This document shows, piece after piece, positions 1 to 35,599 of a stretch of 35,599 nt of DNA. Below the pieces are notes generated by a model. The model was not told the DNA's origin and did no database searches. It worked only from the letters and a program-made list of their open reading frames with translations. Origin of the DNA: a virus; the IMG/VR virus record IMGVR_UViG_3300012347_000528, positions 1 through 35,599 of that record. One strand, 5' to 3'. The position numbers and the translations under genes are program-made. The first letter of the stretch is position 1. Each line of letters opens with the position of its first letter.

Positions 1-3
1 AAA

Positions 4-423
4 ATGGCTTTCAACTTTGAACAGAAAATTAAGGAATTCCAAAAATTGAAGCGTAATTTGCCCGCGCAAGTTGGTAACATTGCGAAGCGCCACTTTGTCG
101 AAAGTTTCAAGAACCAAGGGTTTACAGACGCAAGCCTTGACCCTTGGGCGGCTCGAAAAACCAAAGATAAAAGCGACCGAAGCAAAAGAAACGCCGACAA
201 ACCGCGCGCTATTTTGGTTAAAACAGGTCATTTGCGGGGTTCAATTCGCGTAAGGGTGGCAACATTTAATTTGATAGAAATTGGCGCTTACGGCGTTCCT
301 TATGCGAAATTTCACAACAACCCGACAGGAAAAGGCGTAAAACGTCAATTTATTGGACGGTCAAGGTCGTTAAGCAATAAGATACAGCGAAAAATTAGCC
401 AAGAAATTAATAAAATAATGTAA
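4..423 (+). CDS. Virion morphogenesis / tail-completion protein (Mu gpG-like)
   Basis: Pattern F..SF...GF.....PW...........ILVKTGHLRGSI....IGAYGVPYAKFHN matches the Mu G / Phage_tail_S-type family. It follows the MuF gene across the circular junction, as in Mu. Confidence 0.75.
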   Translation: MAFNFEQKIKEFQKLKRNLPAQVGNIAKRHFVESFKNQGFTDASLDPWAARKTKDKSDRSKRNADKPRAILVKTGHLRGSIRVRVATFNLIEIGAYGVPYAKFHNNPTGKGVKRQFIGRSRSLSNKIQRKISQEINKIM

Positions 424-1770: not shown

Positions 1771-2955
1771 ATGAATTGGAAACATATAAAAAATATCGAC
1801 AAAAATAAGGGTTTCGCCGAAATGTTCATTTACGACGAAATTTCTAACGAAAAAGTAAACGGTTCTTCGTTCGCTTACGAAATGCGCTATTTAATCAATT
1901 ACGAAGGCGTTAAGACTATTAAGGTAAAAATCAATTCTGTTGGTGGTGACGTAATGCACGCGCAAACCATTATTTCTGAAATGATTGACGCCAAAGAAAA
2001 AGGCGTTACCATTGAAACCTACGGACAGGGCTTAATGGCTTCTTCGGCTGGTGTCATTTGGTTGACCGCTGAAAAAGAACACCGTTACGCAAAAGATTAC
2101 GCCCGCCTTATGGTTCACGGCGTTTCTGTTCCTGACGAAGTTCAGCTTTCTGAAGCTGACATTGCGGCGCTTGAAAACTTCAAAAAGATTTTAGTTCAAA
2201 TTTTAGCGAACCGAACAGGAAAAAAGGAAAAGTTTTTTGAAGACTTGTTTACAAATGGAAAAGACAATTGGTTTGACACAAAGCAAATGGTCAAAAACGG
2301 TATTATTGAAGAAAAAAATATTGAAGCAACCGACATAAAAGTTGACATTGCGGAAACAGAAACCACGGCTGGCGTTGTTGTCGTGTATAATAAGCTAATA
2401 ACAACGATTGAAAATAATATTAACACAAAACAAATTAAAATGAAAAAAGTTATTGCACTTTTGAAGCTTCAGGAAGGCGTTTCCGAAGAAGTTGTTGAAA
2501 CAGCGGTTGCGACCATTCAAAACAGTCTGAAAACAGCTGAAGAAACGGTTACGACCACTAAAAACGAACTTGAAAAAGTAAAAGGCGAACTTGCTACGGC
2601 GAACGCGACCCTTGCAGCACAAAACAAAGCGGCTGCGGCTGACTTCGTGAAGAACTGTATTAAAAACGGTCAAATTTCACCTGAAAAAGAAGCTGACGTT
2701 CTTGTTCAAGCTGAAGCGAACCTTGAAGGCTTCAAAAACTTAATGGCTGCAATTCCTGTGAAGGGCGCAAACATTATCGACCAAATTGGAAAAGAAGGAA
2801 CACCTTCACCAACGACGGAAACAAGAACATTCAGACAACTTGAAAAAGAAGCGCCTGAAGTTCTTAACACTATGAGAAAAACGGACTTGAAAACTTTCGT
2901 TAATCTTTATAATGCGGAATACAAAACCAACAAAACTGAAGCTGATTTTCAGTAA
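1771..2955 (+). CDS. ClpP-family (S14) prohead protease fused to a C-terminal scaffold domain
   Basis: INSVGGDV, GLMASSAG (Ser nucleophile region) and LMVHG (His) motifs in the N-terminal ~170 aa. The C-terminal half is Ala/Glu/Lys-rich and coiled-coil-like. It sits immediately upstream of the capsid gene. Confidence 0.85.
   Translation: MNWKHIKNIDKNKGFAEMFIYDEISNEKVNGSSFAYEMRYLINYEGVKTIKVKINSVGGDVMHAQTIISEMIDAKEKGVTIETYGQGLMASSAGVIWLTAEKEHRYAKDYARLMVHGVSVPDEVQLSEADIAALENFKKILVQILANRTGKKEKFFEDLFTNGKDNWFDTKQMVKNGIIEEKNIEATDIKVDIAETETTAGVVVVYNKLITTIENNINTKQIKMKKVIALLKLQEGVSEEVVETAVATIQNSLKTAEETVTTTKNELEKVKGELATANATLAAQNKAAAADFVKNCIKNGQISPEKEADVLVQAEANLEGFKNLMAAIPVKGANIIDQIGKEGTPSPTTETRTFRQLEKEAPEVLNTMRKTDLKTFVNLYNAEYKTNKTEADFQ
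2440..2955 (+). CDS. Possible nested in-frame scaffold protein (internal start in the protease gene)
   Basis: Internal ATG at 2440, preceded by the A-rich leader caaattaaaATG seen at other starts. The product begins MKKVIALLKLQEGVSEEVVETAV, typical of scaffold N-termini. Confidence 0.35.
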   Translation: MKKVIALLKLQEGVSEEVVETAVATIQNSLKTAEETVTTTKNELEKVKGELATANATLAAQNKAAAADFVKNCIKNGQISPEKEADVLVQAEANLEGFKNLMAAIPVKGANIIDQIGKEGTPSPTTETRTFRQLEKEAPEVLNTMRKTDLKTFVNLYNAEYKTNKTEADFQ

Positions 2956-11147: not shown

Positions 11148-13031
11148 ATGAAAAAACCGATTGACGTTTTGAAGACCTACTTTGAAACAGGCGACAAACC
11201 AACGCAACAGCAATTTTCCGACCTTATAGACAGTTTTATTCACAAAGACGAAGGTTTTGTTATTACAGGAACAGAACAGACGCCAACGGGCTTAATAATT
11301 AGTTTTTCAGACGGAACAACGACAACGCTTCCGATTTTTGTATTACAAAACCAAGAAATTGACTTTATTAACGGGCTTCAGGATTTTATTGACCAAACGA
11401 ACCAATTTATTAATAACTTGGTATTAACTGACAATAATTTTACGAACCAAAACTTACAGGATTTGACAAATTTGGTCGCTTTTTTTGACCAATTTCAATC
11501 TTATTCAGGTGAACTGTCGTTTAAAGAAGTCACTTTTCCTGAAGTTGTAATTGGCGGTTCGACAGCTGGCGAAATTATTGACGCTTTTCCTGAAGAAATT
11601 GTTATTAAAAAAGGTCAAATTTTAAAGCTTAATTATTACGAAGCGGATTTTGGCGACGGAAACCACGCAAGAAAAAGTTTTCAAGCTATTTTTGTACTTC
11701 CTTCAGGAACCTATGGAAGCGGAACAGCCAGCGAAGGAAACATTTACGCCGACGCTTATCTTGTTTGCACCGTAAAACAACCCGACACGCAAAGTGTAAT
11801 TTTAAACAGACCATTTTTAAGCTTTCAAATTGACAGACTTATTGACGGAAACGGTTCCGATTTTGACGTTCAAAACCAAGCGGCTTTTAATGACAAAGTT
11901 TTTGACTACGCAAACGCTATAAATACAGCTTCACGTTCAATAAGGGCTTTAAGAATTGTCGAAAATCAAAATATTTCTTACGAACGACATTTTCCTTTAC
12001 TTTTTGAAGGCGAAAAAATTGAAACCGATATAAGTTTTATTTTGGTGTCAGCTGGTGAAAATTACGACGAATTTAAGTTTAATTCTTTGGTTACTTTGAC
12101 AACGCCAACAAACGAAGCTTATAATAAGCTTGAAATGGGTGTTTTTGTTATAGACGAAGAACTTGTTTTTCCAGCTTTAAAATTAACACGCAATATATTT
12201 GGAAGCGACGAAATTCTTTATATAAAGTCAAAAAAAGAAGCTTTTGAAGAAACAAGCGCTTACGGGAACAACACAAAAGAAATTGAATTTAAAAGCGAAT
12301 TTTCTGTTGGTAATTTTGGCAACGACCCTGAAGGTATTTTTGTTGTTAATAATATGGTTTTGAATTTTTCAAACCCTGAAAAAATTGAATTTATAAGAAC
12401 AAAAAAACCAAATTCACAGGCGTTAACCACACGAATTGGGTTTCTTGAAGACTATTGCGCCCAAGAATTCATTCTTAATTATTACGCTTATAAAGCCGAC
12501 GGTGACGGTCTTCGTTTTTGGCTAAACGAAAAGGAAAAAATAAAAACACCTTTTTTTTATTCAAGTGACTATTCAATTCGTGTCTTTAAAAATGAAGCCC
12601 AACTTGTTGAAAAAGAAGACGGTCGTTTTTATTACAAAGACAAACTTGACCAATTCAAAGGAAAAAATAAAAGTTTAATCGTTGACGACTTTGTTAATTT
12701 AGTTAAAAATAAATTTCCAAGGGTTTACAAATGCCTTTTGATTTCAAACGACGGCGTTGAACTTAACCCTATTTTTGAGAAAAACGAACTTGGTGACATA
12801 GTTAAGTTTAATTATAACGGCTCGAATGCGATTAGTATAAGCTTAAAACAGGGTTTTCCTGAAAACAAAACAAACGTTGACGTTGGTTGTTTTAGAGAAC
12901 GTTCAGGTTCAATAGTGCCAATATTCGCGGAATGGATAAACGAAGACGAAATTATTTTACATTCCGAATACGATTTTAATTTTGATAAATTAAAAATTTG
13001 GTTAAAAATTGAAATTGAACCTGAAATTTAA
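11148..13031 (+). CDS. Large baseplate/tail-fibre-associated structural protein
   Basis: 627 aa. I recognise the N-terminal YFETGDKPTQQQFSDLIDSF motif from N-termini of phage fibre/structural proteins. It is embedded in the baseplate cluster. Confidence 0.5.
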   Translation: MKKPIDVLKTYFETGDKPTQQQFSDLIDSFIHKDEGFVITGTEQTPTGLIISFSDGTTTTLPIFVLQNQEIDFINGLQDFIDQTNQFINNLVLTDNNFTNQNLQDLTNLVAFFDQFQSYSGELSFKEVTFPEVVIGGSTAGEIIDAFPEEIVIKKGQILKLNYYEADFGDGNHARKSFQAIFVLPSGTYGSGTASEGNIYADAYLVCTVKQPDTQSVILNRPFLSFQIDRLIDGNGSDFDVQNQAAFNDKVFDYANAINTASRSIRALRIVENQNISYERHFPLLFEGEKIETDISFILVSAGENYDEFKFNSLVTLTTPTNEAYNKLEMGVFVIDEELVFPALKLTRNIFGSDEILYIKSKKEAFEETSAYGNNTKEIEFKSEFSVGNFGNDPEGIFVVNNMVLNFSNPEKIEFIRTKKPNSQALTTRIGFLEDYCAQEFILNYYAYKADGDGLRFWLNEKEKIKTPFFYSSDYSIRVFKNEAQLVEKEDGRFYYKDKLDQFKGKNKSLIVDDFVNLVKNKFPRVYKCLLISNDGVELNPIFEKNELGDIVKFNYNGSNAISISLKQGFPENKTNVDVGCFRERSGSIVPIFAEWINEDEIILHSEYDFNFDKLKIWLKIEIEPEI

Positions 13032-16482: not shown

Positions 16483-16813
16483 AGACAGCGTAAAAGTAGC
16501 TGTTAAGGATTTAGACAAAGCCGTTTTCAAAATGATTGAAGGCAAAGAATGTAAAGAAAAACTTCAAGCTTCAAAAAGCGCTTTGGCGACCTGTGACGAA
16601 GTGAAAACCGAATTAAAACAGGTTAACGACGTCCTGAAGGTAGATTTAAGCTATTTAAAGCAAATAAACGCTAATTTGGAACAGAATGTTGTTGACTTAA
16701 AAAAAGTCGCTGAAAACGAAAAAAACCGCGGAATAAGGCGCGGTTTCTTTGGGTTTTTAAAAGGTGTCGGCGTTACAAGCGCCTTAATTGGTGGCTTCCT
16801 TTTATTCCGTTAA
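16403..16813 (+). CDS. Secreted/tail-anchored coiled-coil protein (spanin-like partner, no lipobox)
   Basis: N-terminal signal-like MKKLKPILLAVLLMNAAAFSQ and C-terminal TMD GVGVTSALIGGFLLF. The start is embedded 80 nt inside the preceding gene in another frame. Confidence 0.5.
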   Translation: MKKLKPILLAVLLMNAAAFSQNLQTNKDSVKVAVKDLDKAVFKMIEGKECKEKLQASKSALATCDEVKTELKQVNDVLKVDLSYLKQINANLEQNVVDLKKVAENEKNRGIRRGFFGFLKGVGVTSALIGGFLLFR

Positions 16814-16867
16814 AGTTTTATAACGAGGTCAAAAGTTTTCGCCAAAACCCTTAAATTTGGGTTAATT

Positions 16868-16917
16868 TGTTCCAAACGCTTGAATTTTTCAATTTGGGTT
16901 TTTGGAACATTTTTTTT
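16868..16917 (+). terminator. Terminator of the late operon (nested hairpin plus T8)
   Basis: TGTTCCAAA (16868-16876) pairs with TTTGGAACA (16901-16909). There is an inner ttgaa-ttt-ttcaa hairpin, followed by eight T (16910-16917). Confidence 0.5.
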
Positions 16918-16930
16918 GGGTTCAATTTCT

Positions 16931-17131
16931 TCAAGCTTTTTCTTCATAAGAATAGATTTCAAGTAAAACGTTTATTTCTTCAGTAAGTTTGAATATTTCT
17001 TTTATAAGCTTCTTTTGCTGTCCGTGTGTGTCGCAAAATGGAAAATAAAGAACGTAACTGTTGCGCTGCTGTTCAAGTTCGTACAGCGCAACAATATAGC
17101 GTTCCGTTGGCTTATTCGCTGGCTTCTTCAA
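16931..17131 (-). CDS. Hypothetical small protein (TTG start only, weak)
   Basis: 66-aa ORF with no ATG. The TTG start overlaps the ATPase gene end by 20 nt. Confidence 0.3.
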   Translation of the reverse strand: MKKPANKPTERYIVALYELEQQRNSYVLYFPFCDTHGQQKKLIKEIFKLTEEINVLLEIYSYEEKA

Positions 17132-18434
17132 TTTCTATTTTTAAGGCGCCCGCTTCGCGGTCAACAAGTTCAATGAACAATTCAATTCCTTCGGACTGTG
17201 ACCAGCTTTGAATTTTCTTGAAGTTTTCTTTGTCAACAAGTGAAGCGTCGATTTTAAGAATTTTAACTTCGTTTAAAAGCGAAGCCCCTATTTTAAGACC
17301 AGCGACAATTTGCGAAGCTGTATTTATTTGATTTTTATCAAAAGGAAGTTCGTTGAATAAGAAACATTCTTTTTCTATGTCATAAGACAAACCTTCAATA
17401 TTGATTTTTTCAGCAATTACAGCCGCCTTTTTGTCTTTTTCAGCCTGAATTTCTTCAGTAGCTTCTTCAATTGCAGCTTCAAGTTTTTCAATTTGTTCGT
17501 CAACTTCTTTGAACGATTTGGCTTCCTTAATTTTTTCGTTAATAGCTTCGGAATTTTCAAATTCTTTTTCCATTCGTTCAAGTTCAGGATTTGGAACAGG
17601 CTTGTTGTTCCAGTCTTTTAGCCATTCGTAACCGTCAGAAATTTGAGTTTTAAGACCTTTTTCGACATTTACAGTCGTTCCGATGCTGTTAACGTATTCG
17701 CCGCCGTTAAGCTTCGCCGAAGCTTCAGCAATTTGACGTTCAAGTTCTTTGGCTTGTTGTTCGCGTTCCGCTATTCCTTCGGTTACTGTGTTCCAAGTTT
17801 GCGCTTTTACGCGTTCAGCTTCCTTCAGTTCAGAAATTTCTTTTGAAAGCTTAACAACGTCAACAGGTTCTTTTTCGGCGTCTTCAGCGTTAAAAAACCC
17901 CGTTTTTGTCTGAAGTTCAGCCAGCTTCTTTTTGTCGAATTTTCGGCTTTCGGAAAGTTCTTCAATTTGCTGGTCAATTTCTGTGACGTCAAGCCCTGTA
18001 ATTTTACAGAAATATTCAACTTGTTTGGCGTCTGACATTTTGAAGAAGTCGTTAACGTCGAAGTCAATTACGCCAATTCTATTGTTCAGCCAAGTTCGAG
18101 GCGCCTTAACAAATTGGTCTTTTTCGTCTTCAGCGTTGAGGTTTTCAATTTCAAAATTAATAGGGCTTTTGCCTGTTGAATTCATTTTTACGCGTACAAC
18201 GTAACCGTCTTCAAGTTCAACTTCAATAAGACCCTTTTTGGCGCCTGTTGTGACAGGTTTTGGCGGAATGTTTTTGCCCGTAAGCGCAAGCCAAACAGCT
18301 TCAATGAACGACGTTTTTCCAGCCGCGTTTTTTCCGATTAAATAAATATCTTTTCCAAGAACTTCACCTTCGTAAGCTTTTAAGCCTTTGAAATTCTGAA
18401 TTTTAATGCGTTTAATTTTGGTTTGATTTTCCAT
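17112..18434 (-). CDS. SMC/Rad50/SbcC-like P-loop ATPase with central coiled coil
   Basis: N-terminal IKIQNFKG...LIGKNAAGKTS (Walker A), a long Glu/Lys coiled-coil centre, and a C-terminal VKILKIDASLVD Walker-B-like segment. Confidence 0.6.
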   Translation of the reverse strand: MENQTKIKRIKIQNFKGLKAYEGEVLGKDIYLIGKNAAGKTSFIEAVWLALTGKNIPPKPVTTGAKKGLIEVELEDGYVVRVKMNSTGKSPINFEIENLNAEDEKDQFVKAPRTWLNNRIGVIDFDVNDFFKMSDAKQVEYFCKITGLDVTEIDQQIEELSESRKFDKKKLAELQTKTGFFNAEDAEKEPVDVVKLSKEISELKEAERVKAQTWNTVTEGIAEREQQAKELERQIAEASAKLNGGEYVNSIGTTVNVEKGLKTQISDGYEWLKDWNNKPVPNPELERMEKEFENSEAINEKIKEAKSFKEVDEQIEKLEAAIEEATEEIQAEKDKKAAVIAEKINIEGLSYDIEKECFLFNELPFDKNQINTASQIVAGLKIGASLLNEVKILKIDASLVDKENFKKIQSWSQSEGIELFIELVDREAGALKIEIEEASE

Positions 18435-18484: not shown

Positions 18485-19147
18485 TTAAAAAGGAAGTTTC
18501 TTTTTTGCAAGTGCGCCCGTTGCTGGGTCAACTTCGTAACCAGCTGGAACTTGGTCACCAGCAACCCAATTTTCAGGCGTTACGACCTTGGTCGCTGTTG
18601 CTGCTGGTTGTGTGTTGGCGTTCGTTGGGTCGGCTGCTGTATTCTTTGCAATAAACGGGTTCCCGCCTTGAATTAACAATTGATTTAAGTCAATTGGCGT
18701 TTCTGTGTATGCTTCAATAATAGCGTTTGAAGGTTCGCTTGGCGGTTCGGGTGTGGTCATATATTCTGTGTCCATTCCTGAACCCTTTTTTGTAATTACG
18801 ACGTCGTAATTTTTAGGGTGACCCCAAGCGGGTTTTTCTGACAAAGCCAAAATTGACGAAATAACGTCCTGTTTGTCAAGTTCCATAACTTCAATTTTTT
18901 GGGTTTTGTAGTTCCAAACTATAAGACCCCAAGCGTGTTTTACGCTGTCTTTTTGGTCAGCGCCTTTTTGTGGTTTTGGTTCGCCCTGTTTGAATGCGTG
19001 TCGAATTGGTTTGCCGTCGCGCCATTCAAGCCACATAAGTAAAGGACTTGACAGAATTCTAAATTTGTTTTCGCCGTTTTCAAGTTTTGTAAAACCGCCG
19101 CCGCTTGTAGGTTGTTCGTAACCCGCTGGAATAAATGAATTGTTCAT
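18485..19147 (-). CDS. Putative ssDNA-binding protein (phage OB-fold SSB-like)
   Basis: The layout GENKFRILSSP...HAWGLIVWNY...WGHPKNYDVVITKKGSGMDTEY resembles phage gp32/gp2.5-type SSBs. It has a flexible Pro/Ala/Thr-rich C-terminal tail ending in LPF. Assigned by pattern memory only. Confidence 0.45.
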   Translation of the reverse strand: MNNSFIPAGYEQPTSGGGFTKLENGENKFRILSSPLLMWLEWRDGKPIRHAFKQGEPKPQKGADQKDSVKHAWGLIVWNYKTQKIEVMELDKQDVISSILALSEKPAWGHPKNYDVVITKKGSGMDTEYMTTPEPPSEPSNAIIEAYTETPIDLNQLLIQGGNPFIAKNTAADPTNANTQPAATATKVVTPENWVAGDQVPAGYEVDPATGALAKKKLPF

Positions 19148-24536: not shown

Positions 24537-24857
24537 ATGAAAAATAAATTAAAAGAATACACTTACGACGAAATTGAAACCATTCTTAAAGAATGTCGTC
24601 TTCAAATTGCTAAAATTGCGGAACTAACGAACCCGACTGAAGTTTTGGTTCTTATGCCAAATTATTTCAGGTCAATTTTAGATTACTATTTTCGTGAAAC
24701 TTGTAAAACGGCACTTTGCGAAATATGTTTTGGAACAGGTTCGACGTTTTACGGGGTTAAAAACTTTTACCCTTCACCAAGTAACCAAATAATAATTTCT
24801 TGTTTAGATAATGCTTTAAATAAGGAAAGTTTGGAAGTAAAGATTGATTTAAAATAA
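24537..24857 (+). CDS. Hypothetical protein
   Basis: 106-aa ORF with an ATG start. Its stop lies inside the left arm of a long hairpin. Confidence 0.5.
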   Translation: MKNKLKEYTYDEIETILKECRLQIAKIAELTNPTEVLVLMPNYFRSILDYYFRETCKTALCEICFGTGSTFYGVKNFYPSPSNQIIISCLDNALNKESLEVKIDLK

Positions 24858-24910
24858 GGCGGAAAGGCGAAGTTCGATTTCATTCCTCTTTTGAACGCCC
24901 GCCTTATTTT
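24851..24910 (+). terminator. Long imperfect hairpin (12-bp outer stem plus inner GC / GTTC-GAAC helices) with a U-rich tail
   Basis: AAAATAAGGCGG (24851-24862) pairs with CCGCCTTATTTT (24899-24910). The inner pairings are g67c68/g97c98 and gttc (24872-75)/gaac (24893-96). Confidence 0.5.
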
Positions 24911-25047
24911 GGGTTTCCTTCATTACAGAATAACGAAGGTAATGTTCAAATTATTTAGTAAACCCGCCACGATAAAAAAGCCTTTTCAGCAATTTGGAAA
25001 CGCAACGGGTCAAAGATACAAATATTAATAATTATAAAACAAATAAA

Positions 25048-25944
25048 ATGGCAAAAAAAATCAGAACACAGGACGAATTTACAAGAAATTGGATAATTCA
25101 AAATTCAATTCAAATAGTTAAGCGCTATAAAGCGGGGGTTTTAACCATTCGCGGGCTTCATTATCAACTTGTTGGAATTGGAATGACAAACACAATGCAG
25201 CACTATAAGCGTGTCGTTGAAGCTATGATTCAGGCGCGTTGGGCTGGTCAAATTGATTTTGAAGCATTCAGCGACCACGACAGGGAAGTTTTGGGCTTCA
25301 CAGCTTCAGAAGAAACAATTCTTGAAGACCAAATTGACACAGGAAAACGACAGGTTCGGGCGTGGGTTCAAAACTATTCAAAAAACCGCTGGGAAAACCA
25401 GCCAATTGTTCCCGAAGTTTGGATTGAAAAAAAGGCGCTTCAAGGGGTTTTTAAAGACCCGTGTTCAGAATACGACGTTGCACTTGCACCGTGCAAAGGT
25501 TACCCTTCTTTGACATTCCTGAACGAAGCGCGCCAAAGGTTCCAGCGTGTAAAAGAAGACGGCAAAATTCCTGTAATTTTGTATTTTGGTGACTATGACC
25601 CAAGCGGCGAAGACATTCCGCGAAGTATTGAAGAAAACTTTACGCGTTTTGGCTGTCCTGTTGAGGTTAAAAGAATTGCATTAATGGAAGAACAGGTTCT
25701 TGCGTGGAAGTTGCCACCAGCACCCGCAAAAGTGGGCGACAGTCGAACAGCGAATTGGGGCGGGCTTGGTCAAGTTGAACTTGACGCCGTGGAACCTGAA
25801 AAGCTTCAGCGTCTTTGCAAAAAGGCTATTGTCGAATTTCTTGACCCCGATTTATACGAAGACCTTCTTACGCAACAGGCTGAAGAAAAAAGCCAATACG
25901 TTAAAGAATTAAAAGACTATGTTACAAACTTAAATTTTGACTAA
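25048..25944 (+). CDS. Spo11 / Topo VI subunit-A-like protein (5Y-CAP plus toprim; 'Mini-A'-like); start corrected from TTG at 24994
   Basis: LTIRGLHY (R35-x3-Y39) resembles the Spo11/TopoVI-A catalytic TxRxhxY motif. VWIEKKALQGVF (toprim Glu), CKGYPS and LYFGDYDPSGEDI (DxD) match the Topo VI-A toprim domain. Confidence 0.7.
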   Translation: MAKKIRTQDEFTRNWIIQNSIQIVKRYKAGVLTIRGLHYQLVGIGMTNTMQHYKRVVEAMIQARWAGQIDFEAFSDHDREVLGFTASEETILEDQIDTGKRQVRAWVQNYSKNRWENQPIVPEVWIEKKALQGVFKDPCSEYDVALAPCKGYPSLTFLNEARQRFQRVKEDGKIPVILYFGDYDPSGEDIPRSIEENFTRFGCPVEVKRIALMEEQVLAWKLPPAPAKVGDSRTANWGGLGQVELDAVEPEKLQRLCKKAIVEFLDPDLYEDLLTQQAEEKSQYVKELKDYVTNLNFD

Positions 25945-26378
25945 TGGCAAACGCAAACCCAAATATTAATTACAAAGTAAGGTTCAAACACGGTGAAGGT
26001 TCCCGCGTTTCAAATATTATCTTAAAAGCTTTGAAGTCGAATAAAACCGACTTCAAGCTTGAAAAGATAAAAACGCCGACGCATTTAAGAAGTAACGAAG
26101 ACCACGTTCAGGAAACAATTATTTCTTTTTTAGACAAAGAAAAACCAGCAAAATTGGAATTCGTTCGCAACGAAATAATTGCTTTAATTCCTGAATTTTT
26201 TCCTGTGAATTATTTCTTTAAATTTACGGACGCTTTTTCAGCTTTGCCGTTCAACTACAAACTTGAATTTTGCCTTATAGTTCACGAAACAGGGCAACGC
26301 GTTTGTTGCTACACTCGAATAAAAGAACAGAAAAAGCAAAGCGAACCAATAACAGCTTACAAAATAGAAGTTGACTAA
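25944..26378 (+). CDS. Hypothetical protein (translationally coupled to the Mini-A-like gene)
   Basis: 144-aa ORF with a TAATG overlap. Confidence 0.5.
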   Translation: MANANPNINYKVRFKHGEGSRVSNIILKALKSNKTDFKLEKIKTPTHLRSNEDHVQETIISFLDKEKPAKLEFVRNEIIALIPEFFPVNYFFKFTDAFSALPFNYKLEFCLIVHETGQRVCCYTRIKEQKKQSEPITAYKIEVD

Positions 26379-32400: not shown

Positions 32401-33723
32401 ATGAGAATTGGAAACCTTGAAATAAGCAAAAACGGCGTTGTAAACGTCAAAACTGAAGCAAAAGTTCGCGCTTTGAACGAACTTACAGCCGCACAACAGC
32501 AAAAACGTAAGTCAAGTAAAATCCGTGAAAAGATAATGAAGACGGCGTTAATTCGTTCGCGTGCTGGTATTCAGGAATGGAAAAACGCCACTTTGTCGGC
32601 TGAAAGCGTAATTTCACCAAATAACACGGAATTAATTCGCGTTTATAAGGACATTGAAATTGACCTTCACCTTTTCGCACTTATGCAAACCGTAAGGCTT
32701 AAAGTAATTGCAAATAATTTCTTTATTTACGACGCTAACGGCGAAGCAAACGAAGAACTTACTGAACTTTTCAAAAGAAAATGGTTCCGTAAGGCGACAA
32801 AGAATATAGTTGACAGCGAATTTTACGGCTTCAGCTTAATTCAGCTTTTAGATATTGAAAACGGAATATTTTCAGACAGCGAACTTGTTCCGCGTGAATA
32901 TGTGGTTCAGCAAAAGCGCGGCGTTAAAACAATGCTGGCAAATTACAAAGACCTTATTCCTTTTGACGCGCCTGAATTCCTGAATTGGCTTATTCCTGTG
33001 GGCGAAGTTGACAACCTTGGTCTTTTGCACAAAGCCGCGCCAATAGTTATCAAAAAAAAGGAAGTTGTTTCCGCTTGGTCTGAAGCTGCTGAAATTTTCG
33101 GAATGCCTTTGCGCCTTGGTAAAACAAACATAAACGACCCCGACAAACGCGCCAATATGGAAGATATGCTTGAAAATATGGGTCAAGCGGCTTGGGGTGT
33201 TTTTGATAGTGAAGACGAAATTACGTTTGTTGAAACCAGCAAAACAGACTTCTTCAAAATATACCAAGAATTTATTAACACGGCGAACGCTGAATTGTCA
33301 AAAGGGTTCCTTTTACAGACAGGAACGACCGACGAAAAGGCTTACGCTGGAAGCGCTGGCGTTCACGAAAGTATTTTAAAGACGTTAATTGAAGCTTATA
33401 TTGTTCTTGTTGAAGAAGTGACAAACGAAGCTATAATTCCCGCCTGTGTTCGCCTTGGGTTGCTTCCTGTTGGGTCAAAATACAAGTCAGACAACGAACA
33501 GAAACTTTCACTTGAAGAAATGGTTAAGATTTTAGATATTTTATTGAAGTCTTCAACGAAGGAAGTTCCAAACGATTGGATTGAAGCGAATTTTGGCGTT
33601 CCTGTCGAAGACAAAGTTCAGGAAGTGGCAAAAGCCGCGCTTGACCCGAACGTTGACCCTGTTACAGTAATGAAAAAAGTAAAAAATCTATATTCAGGCG
33701 CCTTGAAAACGTGCGAACACTAA
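32401..33723 (+). CDS. Portal protein (Mu gp29 / DUF935-like)
   Basis: 440 aa, between the large terminase and MuF genes, which is the canonical Mu-like order. Confidence 0.75.
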   Translation: MRIGNLEISKNGVVNVKTEAKVRALNELTAAQQQKRKSSKIREKIMKTALIRSRAGIQEWKNATLSAESVISPNNTELIRVYKDIEIDLHLFALMQTVRLKVIANNFFIYDANGEANEELTELFKRKWFRKATKNIVDSEFYGFSLIQLLDIENGIFSDSELVPREYVVQQKRGVKTMLANYKDLIPFDAPEFLNWLIPVGEVDNLGLLHKAAPIVIKKKEVVSAWSEAAEIFGMPLRLGKTNINDPDKRANMEDMLENMGQAAWGVFDSEDEITFVETSKTDFFKIYQEFINTANAELSKGFLLQTGTTDEKAYAGSAGVHESILKTLIEAYIVLVEEVTNEAIIPACVRLGLLPVGSKYKSDNEQKLSLEEMVKILDILLKSSTKEVPNDWIEANFGVPVEDKVQEVAKAALDPNVDPVTVMKKVKNLYSGALKTCEH

Positions 33724-33733
33724 AACCCTTGAA

Positions 33734-35380
33734 ATGTCAAACTTTTTGAACTATTCAGACCAGCAAATTGAAGCGCTTATTAACGACGTTTACAGCGGCG
33801 TTGTGACGCGCGACAATTTGCCTGTCGATTTATACGAAGACATTAAAAGGCGCTTGAATAAGGGCGTTTTTGAAGGCTTTGGCGGGTCTTATGAAAACTT
33901 TTCTGAAGACACTACTGAAGGGCTTATTATGTCGGGCTTTGAAAAGAATATTGCTGTCTTTTCGGGCGCAAAAACATTCCAACAGGTCAACGATATGAGT
34001 AATTTTTTATTCGCTGGAAGTGAAAAGCTTCCATTTAGCGAATTTAAAAAGCACGCCAACGAAATATTCGACACCTATAACGACAATTGGCTTAAAACGG
34101 AATACAACACGGCTATAAGTCAGGCGTCTTCAGGGCGTCAATGGAACGATATTAAAAACCAAGCGGACATTTTTCCGTTAATCAAATTTATAACTGTTGG
34201 CGACGGTCGCGTTCGTGACAGTCACAAAGGTTTTGACAATATCGTTAAGCCTATCGGTGACCCGTTTTGGAAAAAGTATTTTCCGCCTTTGGATTGGAAT
34301 TGCCGCTGTACTACTGAACAACTTGAAGAAGGCGACGAACCAATTACAGACATAAAAGGGCGCAACCTTCCTGAAGTTCCGAAGCTGTTCCAAATGAACG
34401 CTGGTGAAGACAAAATTATTTTCGACGAAAGCGTTCACCCTTATTTTAAGGTTGACCAGCGTTATAAAGTGGCGCTTAAAAACAACTTCGACCTTCCTTT
34501 TGTTCCTGAAGTGAAACCAAAAGGCGTGAAGCCTGTTAAAAAGCCAAAGGTTCCCGTTATTCCTGAACCAGCTGTTCAAGGGTTTGTTCCAGCGAAGTCG
34601 ATAAAAGACGCCGAAGCTTACGCACTTGAAAAGCTTGGCGTGAAATTTGCTGAATACAAAGGAATTCCTTTGGAAGTCGTTAACGATATGAATAAAAGCT
34701 TATTTGAAACGCTTGAAAAGTTTCCAGCTTTAAAAATGAACGGAATTGGTTCGGCGCAAAACATAAACGTCAAAATTAAGGCGTACATAAAAGAACAGGT
34801 TATTCAGTCACAGCAATACAAAGAACTTGTTGCGAATTATGGCGAACGCTACGGCGAACGACTTATTAAAAATTATACGAATATGATTAAACCCGTAAAA
34901 AGCGGAACTTTGGCTTATTCAACTAATTACACAAACAGGAAGGCGCTTGGTGCGGTCGGTGTTGACCTTGACCTTGCACAATTTAACGGCGTTTATATAA
35001 ACAAAACCGCTGGAATGACAAAAGACAGCCTTGACGAAATAGTTAAAAGGAATGTCGAAAACGGTTGGTTCGCCAAAGGCGGCGAAGACTTCGGTTACAT
35101 TATGACGCACGAATTCGGTCACGAAATAGACAAACTTCTTGGCTTGAAAGTGAACCCTGAATTCGACGCAATATTTAAAAGGGAACACGCCAACGGGCTT
35201 GACGCCGTTGCTGAACGTTTAAGTCGTTACGGTGCCACAGCTGGAAAAATACCTTCACACAGGCGCGACGAAATGATTGCTGAAGCTTGGGCGGAATACC
35301 TTCACAGCAAAAACCCGCGCGAATTGTCGCGTCAAATTGGCGAATTAATAGAAAAAGAATATAAAAAATATTACAAATGA
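33734..35380 (+). CDS. MuF/SPP1 gp7-family head morphogenesis protein fused to a C-terminal HEXXH (lethal-factor-like) metallopeptidase domain
   Basis: MuF core FITVGDGRVRDSHKGFDN...PPLDWNCRCT, a Pro/Lys linker (aa ~255-285), then THEFGHEID (H459-H463, nt 35108-35122) and RYGATAG...DEMIAEAWAEYLHS. Confidence 0.85.
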   Translation: MSNFLNYSDQQIEALINDVYSGVVTRDNLPVDLYEDIKRRLNKGVFEGFGGSYENFSEDTTEGLIMSGFEKNIAVFSGAKTFQQVNDMSNFLFAGSEKLPFSEFKKHANEIFDTYNDNWLKTEYNTAISQASSGRQWNDIKNQADIFPLIKFITVGDGRVRDSHKGFDNIVKPIGDPFWKKYFPPLDWNCRCTTEQLEEGDEPITDIKGRNLPEVPKLFQMNAGEDKIIFDESVHPYFKVDQRYKVALKNNFDLPFVPEVKPKGVKPVKKPKVPVIPEPAVQGFVPAKSIKDAEAYALEKLGVKFAEYKGIPLEVVNDMNKSLFETLEKFPALKMNGIGSAQNINVKIKAYIKEQVIQSQQYKELVANYGERYGERLIKNYTNMIKPVKSGTLAYSTNYTNRKALGAVGVDLDLAQFNGVYINKTAGMTKDSLDEIVKRNVENGWFAKGGEDFGYIMTHEFGHEIDKLLGLKVNPEFDAIFKREHANGLDAVAERLSRYGATAGKIPSHRRDEMIAEAWAEYLHSKNPRELSRQIGELIEKEYKKYYK

Positions 35381-35544
35381 TTTACGACCAGCCCGTTTGT
35401 ATCAAATGCAAACATTACGACCAAGAAACAGCCACTTGCACGGCTTTTAAAGACGAAATTCCCGACCTTATATATTATGAAGGGAACAAACACGAAAAAC
35501 CCCTTGAAGGTCAAGGAAACGACGTAATTTTTGAACCAGCTTAA
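35377..35544 (+). CDS. Small Cys-containing protein (55 aa), not in the ORF track
   Basis: Its ATG overlaps the MuF stop (ATGA). The product is MIYDQPVCIKCKHYDQETATCTAFKDEIPDLIYYEGNKHEKPLEGQGNDVIFEPA. It ends 3 nt before the next gene's ATG across the junction. Confidence 0.55.
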   Translation: MIYDQPVCIKCKHYDQETATCTAFKDEIPDLIYYEGNKHEKPLEGQGNDVIFEPA

Positions 35545-35599
35545 AAAATGGCTTTCAACTTTGAACAGAAAATTAAGGAATTCCAAAAATTGAAGCGTA
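35545..35599. repeat. 55-bp exact direct repeat of bases 1-55 (contig end overlap)
   Basis: 35545-35599 reads aaaatggctttcaactttgaacagaaaattaaggaattccaaaaattgaagcgta, identical to 1-55. It duplicates the start of the CDS at 4-423. Confidence 0.95.

What the first reader, a model, noticed from the sequence alone, without database searches (positions are those of the whole stretch)
34586..35380. MuF head protein fused to an anthrax-lethal-factor-like zinc metallopeptidase domain
After the MuF core (aa ~100-200) and a Pro/Lys-rich linker (KPKGVKPVKKPKVPVIPEP), the last ~260 aa contain HEFGH (nt 35108-35122). About 54 residues later comes RYGATAG...DEMIAEAWAEYLHS. From memory, this parallels the lethal-factor / ATLF gluzincin signature HEFGHAV ... 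YGRTNEAEFFAEAFRLMHS, whose third zinc ligand is the Glu in FAEAF.

MuF proteins are incorporated into capsids and are known carriers of C-terminal polymorphic toxin or effector domains. A capsid-packaged, possibly ejected, protease could target host proteins such as defence factors, or act in head maturation alongside the ClpP-type protease.
Basis: partly seen in the sequence, partly recalled or inferred. Interest (0 to 1): 0.66.

Follow-up and report, generated by a model that had tools for sequence, protein, structure and literature searches.

The report
Phage head protein carrying lethal-factor-like protease
A phage head protein (MuF) ends in a zinc protease domain distantly related to anthrax lethal factor; this fusion type is already known, and what is new here is that the protease domain and a tiny zinc-binding gene next to it were swapped together between closely related virulent phages.

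Summary
ORF 33734-35380 (548 aa) lies directly after a Mu-type portal gene. It has a MuF core (Pfam E=3e-11), a Pro/Lys linker and a 264-aa C-terminal domain containing HEFGHEID.

The lethal-factor reading holds at family level. The domain belongs to a family of at least 1334 50%-identity cluster representatives, almost always at the C-terminus of MuF proteins. H459, E460, H463, Y499, E513, E517, E521 and R529 are invariant in 153/153 representatives. The family profile hits anthrax lethal factor (E=2e-5) and Pro-Pro endopeptidases. Some members pass Pfam's ATLF threshold, but the window protein alone does not. The closest solved folds are all M34 peptidases, though the matches are weak.

MuF-metallopeptidase fusions are already described, and phage homologs are already named "Lethal factor". 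This is therefore a new member of a known kind.

Two further results:
- **Cassette swap:** against the virulent Flavobacterium phage pippi8-1 (whole genome collinear, ~76-80% nt identity), homology stops at the linker and resumes at the next gene. The peptidase domain and a 55-aa Cys3-His ORF were therefore exchanged as one unit.
- **Small-ORF family:** this ORF family (612 members, unannotated) followed this peptidase domain in every context examined.

Function is inferred: probably a capsid-delivered protease with a dedicated small partner.

The parts
33734..35380 (+). Gene for the 548-aa MuF-peptidase fusion protein (stop codon included).
   Evidence: ORF list. Identical protein P0009 is already in public metagenome data. 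The gene starts 11 nt after the Mu-type portal gene ends.
34037..34315 (+). MuF (Phage_Mu_F, PF04233) core, aa 102-194, including the NCRC motif at aa 189-192.
   Evidence: Pfam E=3.1e-11, 44.4 bits against a 29.6 cutoff. TIGR01641 phageSPP1_gp7 scores 37.4 bits. aa 1-254 are 80% identical to pippi8-1 gp028.
34514..34570 (+). Pro/Lys-rich linker KPKGVKPVKKPKVPVIPEP (aa 261-279). It is the left recombination boundary of the cassette.
   Evidence: Coordinates. Nucleotide homology to pippi8-1 ends at 34543, inside this linker. Family linkers are Pro-enriched (7.7% against 2.9%) but have no conserved Pro-Pro site.
34586..35377 (+). C-terminal 264-aa lethal-factor/M34-like zinc metallopeptidase domain (aa 285-548).
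   Evidence: AF2 model pLDDT 95.9, pTM 0.92. Family profile against LF E=2e-5. At least 1334 family representatives. Top PDB folds are all PPEP-1/2/3. BFVD hits include phage proteins named 'Lethal factor' and 'Minor capsid protein' at E=1e-5 to 6e-4.
35108..35131 (+). HEFGHEID: two zinc-ligand His (H459, H463), catalytic Glu (E460) and Asp three residues after the motif (D466).
   Evidence: H, E and H are 153/153 invariant and D466 is 150/153. The motif aligns to LF HEFGHAVD and PPEP-1 HETAHAID.
35228..35230 (+). Tyr499, the counterpart of LF Tyr728 and PPEP-1 Tyr178 (transition-state Tyr by established knowledge).
   Evidence: 153/153 invariant. It aligns to the LF 'SYG' Tyr. Tyr-to-Glu spacing is 7 in 48/152 members, as in LF, and 14 in the window's clade because of a loop insertion.
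35270..35296 (+). Glu helix EMIAEAWAE: E513 (predicted third zinc ligand, equivalent to LF E735), E517 (equivalent to LF E739) and E521.
   Evidence: All three Glu are 153/153 invariant. Alignment to LF 'EFFAEAF'. The model places them in helix 223-240 of the domain.
35377..35544 (+). 55-aa Cys3-His small ORF whose start overlaps the MuF stop (ATGA). It is the cassette partner of the peptidase domain.
   Evidence: C8, C11, C21 and H39 are invariant. 612 homologs, all small and unannotated. It follows the peptidase domain in 27 loci and in 5/5 independently sampled contexts. No Pfam, PDB, PADLOC or fold match.
34544..35546 (+). About 1 kb cassette (linker end, peptidase domain and small ORF) with no nucleotide homology to the otherwise collinear pippi8-1 genome.
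   Evidence: blastn shows 76-81% identity up to 34543 and again from window position 2 (equivalent to 35546 across the 55-nt terminal overlap).
32401..33723 (+). Mu-type portal protein gene immediately upstream. This is the canonical neighbour of muf genes.
   Evidence: Pfam Portal_Mu PF06074, E=1.1e-65.
1771..2955 (+). ClpP-family prohead protease gene next to the capsid genes. It is a separate head-maturation protease.
   Evidence: Pfam CLP_protease, E=1.2e-16. It is orthologous to pippi8-1 gp034 'protease'.

Best explanation
The gene encodes a MuF-family minor head protein whose last 264 residues form a catalytically intact zinc endopeptidase. This domain is a distant relative of the anthrax lethal factor / Pro-Pro endopeptidase group (MEROPS M34, Pfam ATLF).

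Predicted chemistry: H459, H463 and E513 hold the zinc. E460 activates the water. Y499 and D466 complete the site.

Proposed mechanism:
1. The MuF half docks the protein at the portal inside the procapsid, so a few copies are packaged.
2. At infection the protein leaves the capsid with the DNA.
3. The peptidase cuts one or more host proteins early in infection, probably as an anti-defence or takeover effector.
4. The 55-aa Cys3-His protein encoded by the overlapping downstream gene is its dedicated partner. It is most simply an inhibitor or chaperone that keeps the enzyme harmless in the producing cell.

Shown here: domain identity, active-site conservation, architecture, the cassette exchange and the linkage to the small ORF. 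Inferred, not shown: packaging, ejection, effector role and partner function. My confidence in the identity as an LF/M34-like metallopeptidase domain on a MuF protein is about 0.85-0.9. The figure given below is for the whole mechanism.
For: Identity:
- The family profile hits LF at E=2.1e-5 and PPEPs at 0.007.
- Family members pass the Pfam ATLF gathering score.
- The top 19 PDB folds are all M34 PPEPs.
- Phage proteins named 'Lethal factor' or 'Minor capsid protein' match at E=1e-5 to 6e-4.
- HExxHxxD, Tyr and ExxAE are invariant in 153/153.
- His-to-Glu spacing of 45 and Tyr-to-Glu spacing of 7, identical to LF, occur in large parts of the family.

Delivery module:
- MuF Pfam hit with the portal gene directly upstream.
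- The domain is always at the extreme C-terminus of MuF proteins of both the PF04233 and PF06152 branches.
- The MuF-family protein 80alpha gp44 is described as an ejection (pilot) protein (PMC12323379).
- MuF fusions are proposed to be delivered effectors (PMC5576092, PMC5512222).

Effector rather than mere processing enzyme:
- In the window protein there is no other effector domain for the peptidase to release.
- A separate ClpP prohead protease exists.
- The domain is shuffled among unrelated MuF N-termini.
- It is one of only three blocks of 1 kb or more replaced against pippi8-1. Another of these is the tail-fibre-like gene. This pattern is typical of arms-race loci.

Partner:
- The small ORF is co-replaced with the domain.
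- It overlaps the stop codon.
- It follows this domain in 27 loci and in 5/5 sampled contexts, with different portal and MuF types.
- Other clades of the domain carry other small ORFs: 139/149 loci have one. This mirrors the 89% reported for MuF toxins against 25% for short MuF genes (PMC5576092).
Against: - The window protein alone has no significant hit to any peptidase family.
- Homology to LF is limited to the ~70-residue catalytic core.
- Foldseek statistics against the PDB are weak: E>=0.4, TM 0.4-0.5.
- No virion proteomics exist. The 'structural protein' label on pippi8-1 gp028 rests on similarity only.
- No member of this family has a known substrate.
- Some relatives place an ADP-ribosyltransferase between MuF and the peptidase. 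That fits the alternative view that the peptidase is a processing enzyme.
- The small ORF has no recognisable fold or family. Its adjacency could reflect co-inheritance in a variable region rather than physical partnership.
Confidence: 0.5

Rival explanations
1. Self-processing peptidase. The domain's substrate is its own polypeptide or other packaged proteins. It would cut at or near the linker to free itself, or an intervening effector domain, from the portal-bound MuF anchor. This could happen inside the capsid or after ejection, and the domain would have no host target of its own.
For: Iyer et al. propose autoproteolytic processing as the main role of zincin MPTases in phage polyvalent proteins. 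They describe a phage-type clade with an Asp three residues after HEXXH, as here (PMC5512222). Relatives have MuF-ART-peptidase and MuF-peptidase-M12 architectures, in which release of domains would make sense. The linker is flexible and Pro-rich.
Against: Most family members, including the window protein, carry only MuF plus the peptidase, so nothing else needs releasing. No conserved cleavage motif exists in the linker: Pro-Pro occurs in only 24/124. A pure housekeeping cleavage would not predict cassette replacement together with a small partner gene.
Confidence: 0.25
2. Head-assembly or maturation protease. The domain would act in the procapsid on scaffold, portal or capsid proteins, in parallel with or instead of the ClpP-type protease.
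For: The gene sits in the head module between the portal and morphogenesis genes. PHROG 324, which covers the domain, is labelled 'head morphogenesis'. A mycobacteriophage protein named 'Capsid maturation protease' is a weak structural match, E=0.017.
Against: A dedicated ClpP-family prohead protease lies next to the capsid genes and is conserved in pippi8-1. The close relative pippi8-1 has replaced this domain with a sequence-unrelated one, while its capsid, portal and protease genes stay 75-80% identical. An essential maturation enzyme matched to conserved substrates would not be expected to be swapped this way. The labels cited in favour are annotations by similarity, not experiments.
Confidence: 0.1
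3. Interbacterial polymorphic toxin with an immunity protein, in the sense of Jamet et al. The peptidase would be toxic to bacteria, and the small ORF would be an immunity protein that protects lysogens or kin cells.
For: The architecture matches the MuF-toxin definition: MuF N-terminus, variable C-terminal enzymatic domain and a small downstream ORF (PMC5576092). 20% of MuF toxins carry metallopeptidases. Relatives occur in prophage-like regions of many bacterial genomes.
Against: The window phage is collinear with a genus of virulent myoviruses (PMC7077304). No integrase was found among the ORFs scanned. There would therefore be no lysogen to protect. This does not exclude inhibition of the enzyme in the producing cell, which is part of the best explanation.
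Confidence: 0.12
4. Degenerate or non-catalytic domain whose HEXXH is a relic or a chance occurrence.
For: No single-sequence hit to a peptidase family.
Against: Every catalytic and zinc-binding position is invariant across 153 representatives at 25-50% overall identity. The predicted fold is very confident.
Confidence: 0.02

Closest known systems
Anthrax lethal factor catalytic domain and Pro-Pro endopeptidases PPEP-1/2/3 (MEROPS M34; Pfam ATLF PF07737)
   Same: The active-site signature HExxHxxD ... (S/T)Y ... ExxAE is shared. In many family members the His-to-Glu (45) and Tyr-to-Glu (7) spacings are identical to LF. The family profile is significant against LF. M34 enzymes are the top structural neighbours.
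   Different: Similarity is confined to the ~70-residue catalytic core. The N-terminal ~150 residues of the domain (helical insert and sheet) are family-specific, and the fold match is weak (TM 0.4-0.5). The window's clade has a 7-residue insertion between the Tyr and the Glu. The domain is not secreted: it has no signal peptide or PA-binding domain and is tethered to a phage head protein. The substrate is unknown.
MuF polymorphic toxins (Jamet et al. 2017, PMC5576092)
   Same: MuF N-terminus next to the portal gene. Variable C-terminal enzymatic domain (20% of their set are metallopeptidases). Small ORF immediately downstream. Recombination of the C-terminal module.
   Different: [quoted passage not shown] The window belongs to a virulent-type Flavobacterium myovirus lineage. 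The small partner here is a specific Cys3-His family that has not been described.
Zincin-like MPTase domains of phage and plasmid polyvalent proteins (Iyer et al. 2017, PMC5512222; Pfam MPTase-PolyVal)
   Same: A virion-associated zincin domain with Asp three residues after HEXXH. It was linked by HHpred to lethal factor (N4 vRNAP region against 4dv8). It is fused to MuF, ART and other effector domains in relatives.
   Different: No Pfam MPTase-PolyVal hit. The window protein is a minimal two-domain version, not a giant polyvalent protein. The authors favour autoprocessing, whereas here there is no cargo domain to release.
Flavobacterium phage vB_FspM_pippi8-1 gp028 (Pippivirus, Winoviridae)
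   Same: Orthologous gene in a collinear genome. aa 1-254 are 80% identical and the length is similar (537 aa). It also carries an HEXXH (HEIGH) in its C-terminal half and a small overlapping downstream ORF.
   Different: The C-terminal ~270 aa and the small ORF (acidic, 70 aa, no Cys motif) are unrelated by BLAST. Relationship of the two C-domains is inconclusive: 16.6 bits against a shuffle maximum of 10.6, and hhalign probability 27%.

Membership tests
MEROPS M34 / Pfam ATLF (anthrax lethal factor-like gluzincins) | HExxH zinc-binding and catalytic motif in a helix | tested here: met
   HEFGH at aa 459-463. Invariant in 153/153. It lies in predicted helix 170-185 of the domain.
MEROPS M34 / Pfam ATLF (anthrax lethal factor-like gluzincins) | Third zinc ligand is a Glu about 45 residues after the second His, in an ExxAE helix (LF E735) | tested here: met
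   E513 aligns to the LF Glu of 'AEFFAE'. Invariant in 153/153. Spacing is 45 in 58/152 members and 50 in the window. Zinc binding itself was not tested.
MEROPS M34 / Pfam ATLF (anthrax lethal factor-like gluzincins) | Conserved Tyr 7 residues before the Glu ligand (LF Y728, PPEP-1 Y178) | tested here: met
   Y499 is invariant and aligned to the LF Tyr. Spacing is 7 in 48/152 members. It is 14 in the window because of a loop insertion.
MEROPS M34 / Pfam ATLF (anthrax lethal factor-like gluzincins) | Significant match of the protein itself to the curated family model | tested here: not met
   The window protein has no ATLF hit even at E<=1. Only transitive support exists: the family profile against LF at E=2e-5, and relatives P0131 and its domain at 29.3 and 30.6 bits against a gathering score of 27.4, covering model positions 108-176/193 only.
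MEROPS M34 / Pfam ATLF (anthrax lethal factor-like gluzincins) | Whole-domain fold similarity to solved M34 structures | tested here: inconclusive
   The top 19 Foldseek PDB hits are all PPEP-1/2/3, but E=0.4-1.5 and TM=0.42-0.49, with no hit below 1e-3. LF itself is not listed.
MEROPS M34 / Pfam ATLF (anthrax lethal factor-like gluzincins) | Zinc-dependent endopeptidase activity | not testable with these tools
   Needs purified protein, metal analysis and cleavage assays.
MuF / SPP1 gp7 minor head protein family (PF04233) | Match to the Phage_Mu_F model above the curated cutoff | tested here: met
   44.4 bits against 29.6, aa 102-194.
MuF / SPP1 gp7 minor head protein family (PF04233) | Gene immediately downstream of the portal gene in the packaging and head module | tested here: met
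   Portal_Mu gene at 32401-33723, with the muf gene starting at 33734. TerL and a Mu gp36-like gene lie upstream.
MuF / SPP1 gp7 minor head protein family (PF04233) | Incorporation into the capsid at the portal, and ejection | not testable with these tools
   No proteomics exist for this phage. The pippi8-1 'structural protein' label is by similarity only.
MuF polymorphic toxins (Jamet et al. 2017) | C-terminal module varies among otherwise closely related MuF proteins and is shared with unrelated N-termini | tested here: met
   pippi8-1 has 80% identity in the N-terminus and an unrelated C-terminus. Relatives with 42-49% identical peptidase domains have MuF N-termini undetectable by BLAST. 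The domain is found on both PF04233 and PF06152 MuF types.
MuF polymorphic toxins (Jamet et al. 2017) | Small ORF (<150 aa) immediately downstream (candidate immunity gene) | tested here: met
   55-aa ORF overlapping the stop codon. 139/149 related loci have one, median 57 aa.
MuF polymorphic toxins (Jamet et al. 2017) | Encoded by temperate phages or prophages | tested here: not met
   The window is collinear with virulent Pippivirus phages (PMC7077304). No integrase was found among the 20 ORFs scanned. More distant relatives do lie in bacterial genomes.
MuF polymorphic toxins (Jamet et al. 2017) | Toxicity of the C-terminal domain and neutralisation by the downstream protein | not testable with these tools
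   Needs expression experiments.
Polyvalent-protein zincin MPTase (Pfam MPTase-PolyVal; Iyer et al. 2017) | Match to the curated model | tested here: not met
   No such hit for the window domain or for 33 family members at E<=0.1.
Polyvalent-protein zincin MPTase (Pfam MPTase-PolyVal; Iyer et al. 2017) | Phage-type clade feature: Asp three residues after HEXXH | tested here: met
   D466 in 150/153. The feature is described in PMC5512222. It is also present in LF and PPEP-1, so it does not discriminate.

The most novel reading that the evidence does not exclude
The peptidase domain and the 55-aa Cys3-His protein form an exchangeable two-gene 'effector plus cognate inhibitor' cassette carried in the head module of virulent phages. 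The small zinc protein would bind and silence the lethal-factor-like protease in the producing cell and would be left behind at packaging. An active protease would then be injected into the next host, where it cleaves a defence or housekeeping protein. Different phages of one genus would carry different protease/partner pairs as a result of an arms race. If so, the 612-member small-protein family would be a new class of protease inhibitor or immunity protein. MuF 'toxins' would also be infection-stage effectors of lytic phages, not a feature of lysogeny.
Probability: 0.25. Interest if true: 0.65.

Novelty: new member of a known kind. Interest (0 to 1): 0.42.

Why it matters
Proteins packed in phage heads and injected with the DNA are a poorly charted class of early effectors. 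This family, MuF plus a lethal-factor-like protease, is very large (at least 1334 clusters at 50% identity). It spans phages and prophages of many phyla and has an invariant active site, yet no member has a known substrate.

The window offers a tractable entry point. It has cultured relatives (Pippivirus phages on Flavobacterium sp. LMO8) that carry an alternative cassette, so swap and point-mutant experiments are feasible. The candidate partner protein is clearly defined.

The window also shows that such fusions are not restricted to temperate phages, as earlier surveys concluded.

If the finding is only what it most conservatively appears to be, it is a correct and useful annotation rather than a discovery.

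Tried and rejected
1. Single-sequence searches of the domain found nothing significant. Pfam gave only a sub-threshold Zn_peptidase match (E=0.02). NCBIfam gave E>=0.04. PDB sequences gave E>=0.06. PADLOC gave nothing meaningful.
2. tblastn of the domain against 50,697 phage genomes found no match even at E<=1. Close relatives exist only in metagenomes.
3. The 8-sequence profile (A2) against the PDB gave only an IrrE-like hit at E=2.2. The more diverse 33-sequence profile was needed to reach LF.
4. I considered that the Pro-rich linker might be a PPEP-style Pro-Pro self-cleavage site. I rejected this because Pro-Pro occurs in only 24/124 linkers, there is none in the window, and no motif is conserved.
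5. I tested whether the pippi8-1 C-terminal domain belongs to the same family. The result is inconclusive: 16.6 bits against a shuffle maximum of 10.6, only the HEXXH helix aligned, hhalign probability 27-46%, only 6 homologs, and no PDB hit.
6. The small ORF has no Pfam, PDB-sequence, PADLOC or Foldseek match.
It was redone with database homologs.
8. Model coordinates are not exposed, so zinc-site geometry and docking of the small protein could not be examined.
9. Literature searches found no experimental study of a MuF-linked LF-like protease.
10. The supplements of Jamet et al. held no text naming the metallopeptidase families.
Full report
**What is there**

The window is a complete, circularly assembled phage genome. 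Its first and last 55 nt are identical, giving 35,544 bp at 39% GC. ORF 33734-35380 on the + strand encodes 548 aa. It starts 11 nt after a Mu-type portal gene (Portal_Mu, E=1e-65). It carries a Phage_Mu_F core at aa 102-194 (44.4 bits against a 29.6 cutoff) and a Pro/Lys linker at aa 261-279. HEFGH sits exactly at nt 35108-35122, followed by RYGATAG and DEMIAEAWAEYLHS. A ClpP-family protease gene lies at 1771-2955.

**Is the C-terminal domain a lethal-factor-like peptidase?**

On its own the domain hits no curated family. Pfam gives only a sub-threshold Zn_peptidase match around the HEXXH. NCBIfam, PDB sequences and PADLOC give nothing. PHROG 324 ('head morphogenesis') does cover it (E=9e-16).

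An exhaustive profile search found 1334 cluster representatives at E<=1e-3, of which 686 are at E<=1e-10. Nearly all are 500-650 aa with the domain at the extreme C-terminus. Across 153 representatives at 25-50% identity, H459, E460, H463, Y499, E513, E517, E521 and R529 are invariant, and D466 is present in 150/153.

A 33-sequence profile hits anthrax lethal factor at E=2.1e-5 (catalytic fragment 2l0r) and at 2.2e-4 (4dv8, 4pkq, 1yqy). It then hits the M34 Pro-Pro endopeptidases at E=0.007-0.02, and PPEP-3, deposited as an 'ATLF-like domain' protein. The alignment pairs:
- HEFGHEID with LF HEFGHAVD;
- Y499 with the LF Tyr of 'SYG';
- E513 with the Glu of 'AEFFAE'.

Counting from H686 in the aligned string, those LF residues are Y728 and E735, the known catalytic Tyr and third zinc ligand.

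Five of 33 family members hit Pfam ATLF directly, and two pass its gathering score. These matches cover only model positions 108-176 of 193. In 58/152 members the His-to-Glu spacing is 45, and in 48/152 the Tyr-to-Glu spacing is 7, exactly as in LF. The window's clade has a 7-residue loop insertion.

The AlphaFold model is very confident (pLDDT 95.9, pTM 0.92). It shows strands, then the HEXXH helix, then a Glu helix, as in zincins. Its 19 best PDB neighbours are all PPEP-1/2/3, but weakly (E=0.4-1.5, TM 0.4-0.5). In the viral structure library it matches phage 'Minor capsid protein' and proteins already named 'Lethal factor' at E=1e-5 to 6e-4.

I conclude that the domain is a distant relative of the LF/M34 group with the same active-site design. 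It is not a demonstrable member by the curated model, and its N-terminal ~150 residues are family-specific.

**How new is this?**

Jamet et al. defined MuF polymorphic toxins and reported that 20% of 191 carried metallopeptidase domains. They found that 89% were followed by a small ORF, against 25% for short MuF genes (PMC5576092).

Iyer et al. found zincin peptidases to be the commonest domain of phage and plasmid polyvalent proteins. They described a phage-type clade with Asp three residues after HEXXH, and linked an N4-type virion peptidase to lethal factor by HHpred (PMC5512222).

Relatives of the window domain show those polyvalent architectures: MuF-ADP-ribosyltransferase-peptidase (P0053, P0145) and MuF-peptidase-M12 peptidase (P0033). 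The domain sits on both MuF branches, PF04233 and PF06152. The fusion is therefore a new member of a known kind. No paper in the library reports an experiment on such a protease.

**What the context adds**

The window is collinear with the virulent Flavobacterium myovirus pippi8-1 (Pippivirus) along its whole length. 82% of bases align at 72-82% identity (lifestyle from PMC7077304). No integrase was found among 20 ORFs scanned.

Homology runs through the portal gene and the first ~270 codons of muf. It stops at 34543, inside the linker, and resumes exactly at the start of the next gene. The ~1 kb in between holds the peptidase domain and a 55-aa ORF whose ATG overlaps the muf stop codon. In pippi8-1 this stretch is replaced by an unrelated ~270-aa C-terminal half plus an unrelated acidic 70-aa ORF.

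Only two other blocks of 1 kb or more are replaced between the genomes. One of them is the tail-fibre-like gene. Conversely, relatives whose peptidase domain is 42-49% identical to the window's often have MuF N-termini with no detectable similarity. The domain therefore recombines at the linker as a module, together with the small gene.

The pippi8-1 replacement also contains an invariant HExxH and a Tyr-x6-Glu. Its relationship to the window's family could not be established.

**The small ORF**

It is a real gene. C8, C11, C21 and H39 are invariant, which suggests a Cys3-His zinc site. It has 612 database homologs, all 55-100 aa and unannotated. Its model is confident (pLDDT 88), and it resembles no known family or fold.

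It follows the peptidase domain in 27 of the fetched loci. It does so in all five contexts sampled independently from the small-ORF side. These include a divergent HEFTH/HEFAH branch of the domain and head modules with either Mu-type or SPP1-type portals. Other clades of the domain are followed by other small-ORF families, the largest in 50 loci. Overall 139/149 loci have such an ORF.

**Mechanism**

The following are shown: identity of both domains, invariance of the catalytic set, C-terminal position on MuF, modular exchange and linkage to the small gene.

The following are inferred:
- MuF docks the protein at the portal, so it is packaged. MuF proteins are head components, and 80alpha gp44 is described as an ejection/pilot protein (PMC12323379).
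- The protein then leaves with the DNA.
- The peptidase cleaves host protein(s) early in infection.

I favour an effector role over pure self-processing for three reasons. The window protein has no other cargo domain to release. A separate ClpP prohead protease exists. The locus behaves like an arms-race locus.

The self-processing model of Iyer et al. remains a serious rival, especially given the MuF-ART-peptidase relatives. A search for a conserved Pro-Pro self-cleavage site in the linker was negative.

The small zinc protein is most economically a cognate inhibitor or chaperone. That is a hypothesis only.

**Verdict**

The thing itself is a known kind of fusion. The modest new points are:
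- its presence in a virulent-type phage, where earlier surveys found none;
- the demonstrable two-gene cassette swap between congeneric phages;
- a large, undescribed Cys3-His small-protein family tied to the domain.

Noticed in passing
window 35377-35544 (+): 55-aa ORF overlapping the muf stop codon (ATGA) with invariant C8, C11, C21 and H39. It belongs to an unannotated family of 612 small proteins and always followed the LF-like peptidase domain in the contexts examined. It has no known fold or family.
   Followed up: yes
window 34544-35546 against L169 (pippi8-1) 16804-17817: The only head-module segment without nucleotide homology to the collinear pippi8-1 genome. The MuF C-terminal domain and the small ORF were replaced together, with the left boundary inside the Pro/Lys linker and the right boundary at the start of the next gene.
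   Followed up: yes
L001 4811-5823 (pippi8-1 gp028 C-terminal half and gp029): The alternative cassette also has an invariant HExxH (HEIGH) and Tyr-x6-Glu. Its few homologs (P0278-P0282, 435-439 aa) have no recorded Pfam domain, and their N-termini do not resemble the window's MuF. Its small ORF is acidic and has no Cys motif. Relationship to the window's domain is inconclusive.
   Followed up: partly
window 1-55 and 35545-35599: Exact 55-nt terminal direct repeat. The window is a circularly assembled complete genome of 35,544 bp. The gene for the Phage_tail_S-like morphogenesis protein (4-423) appears partly twice because of this.
   Followed up: yes
window 17112-18434 (-) and 18485-19147 (-): Among the few sizeable minus-strand genes in the genome is an AAA_23/AAA_15 ATPase. 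It resembles the defence ATPases AriA (E=4e-9), GajA and AbiLi in PADLOC. Next to it is a 219-aa protein with no hits. Both are conserved in pippi8-1 (gp002, gp003), so they are core genes rather than an island.
   Followed up: partly
window 11717-13024 (within ORF 11148-13031) and 24837-26168: These are the two other blocks of 1 kb or more with no homology to pippi8-1. One is the C-terminal two-thirds of a 627-aa structural ORF, likely a tail fibre or receptor-binding protein. The other is a block of early genes (ORFs 24994-25944 and 25944-26378, no Pfam hits).
   Followed up: no
proteins P0053, P0145, P0033, P0011, P0072 (relatives): Relatives of the domain occur in larger architectures: MuF-ADP-ribosyltransferase-peptidase, and MuF-peptidase-reprolysin-like M12 peptidase. 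Some MuF genes are interrupted by intein/LAGLIDADG elements.
   Followed up: partly
loci L022-L081 and L083-L161 (e.g. L022 3555-3725, L029): A second, unrelated small-ORF family ('..KELGYT....GI.IPYE.EL..LP', about 50 aa) follows the peptidase gene in 50 loci of a different clade of the domain. This suggests clade-specific partners.
   Followed up: partly
L082 (Chitinophagaceae MAG) and L083-L161: The domain family occurs in prophage-like regions of Bacillota, Bacteroidota, Spirochaetota, Pseudomonadota, Fusobacteriota and others, and in two bins labelled archaeal. The best genome hit to the window (46% identity) is in a Chitinophagaceae MAG.
   Followed up: no
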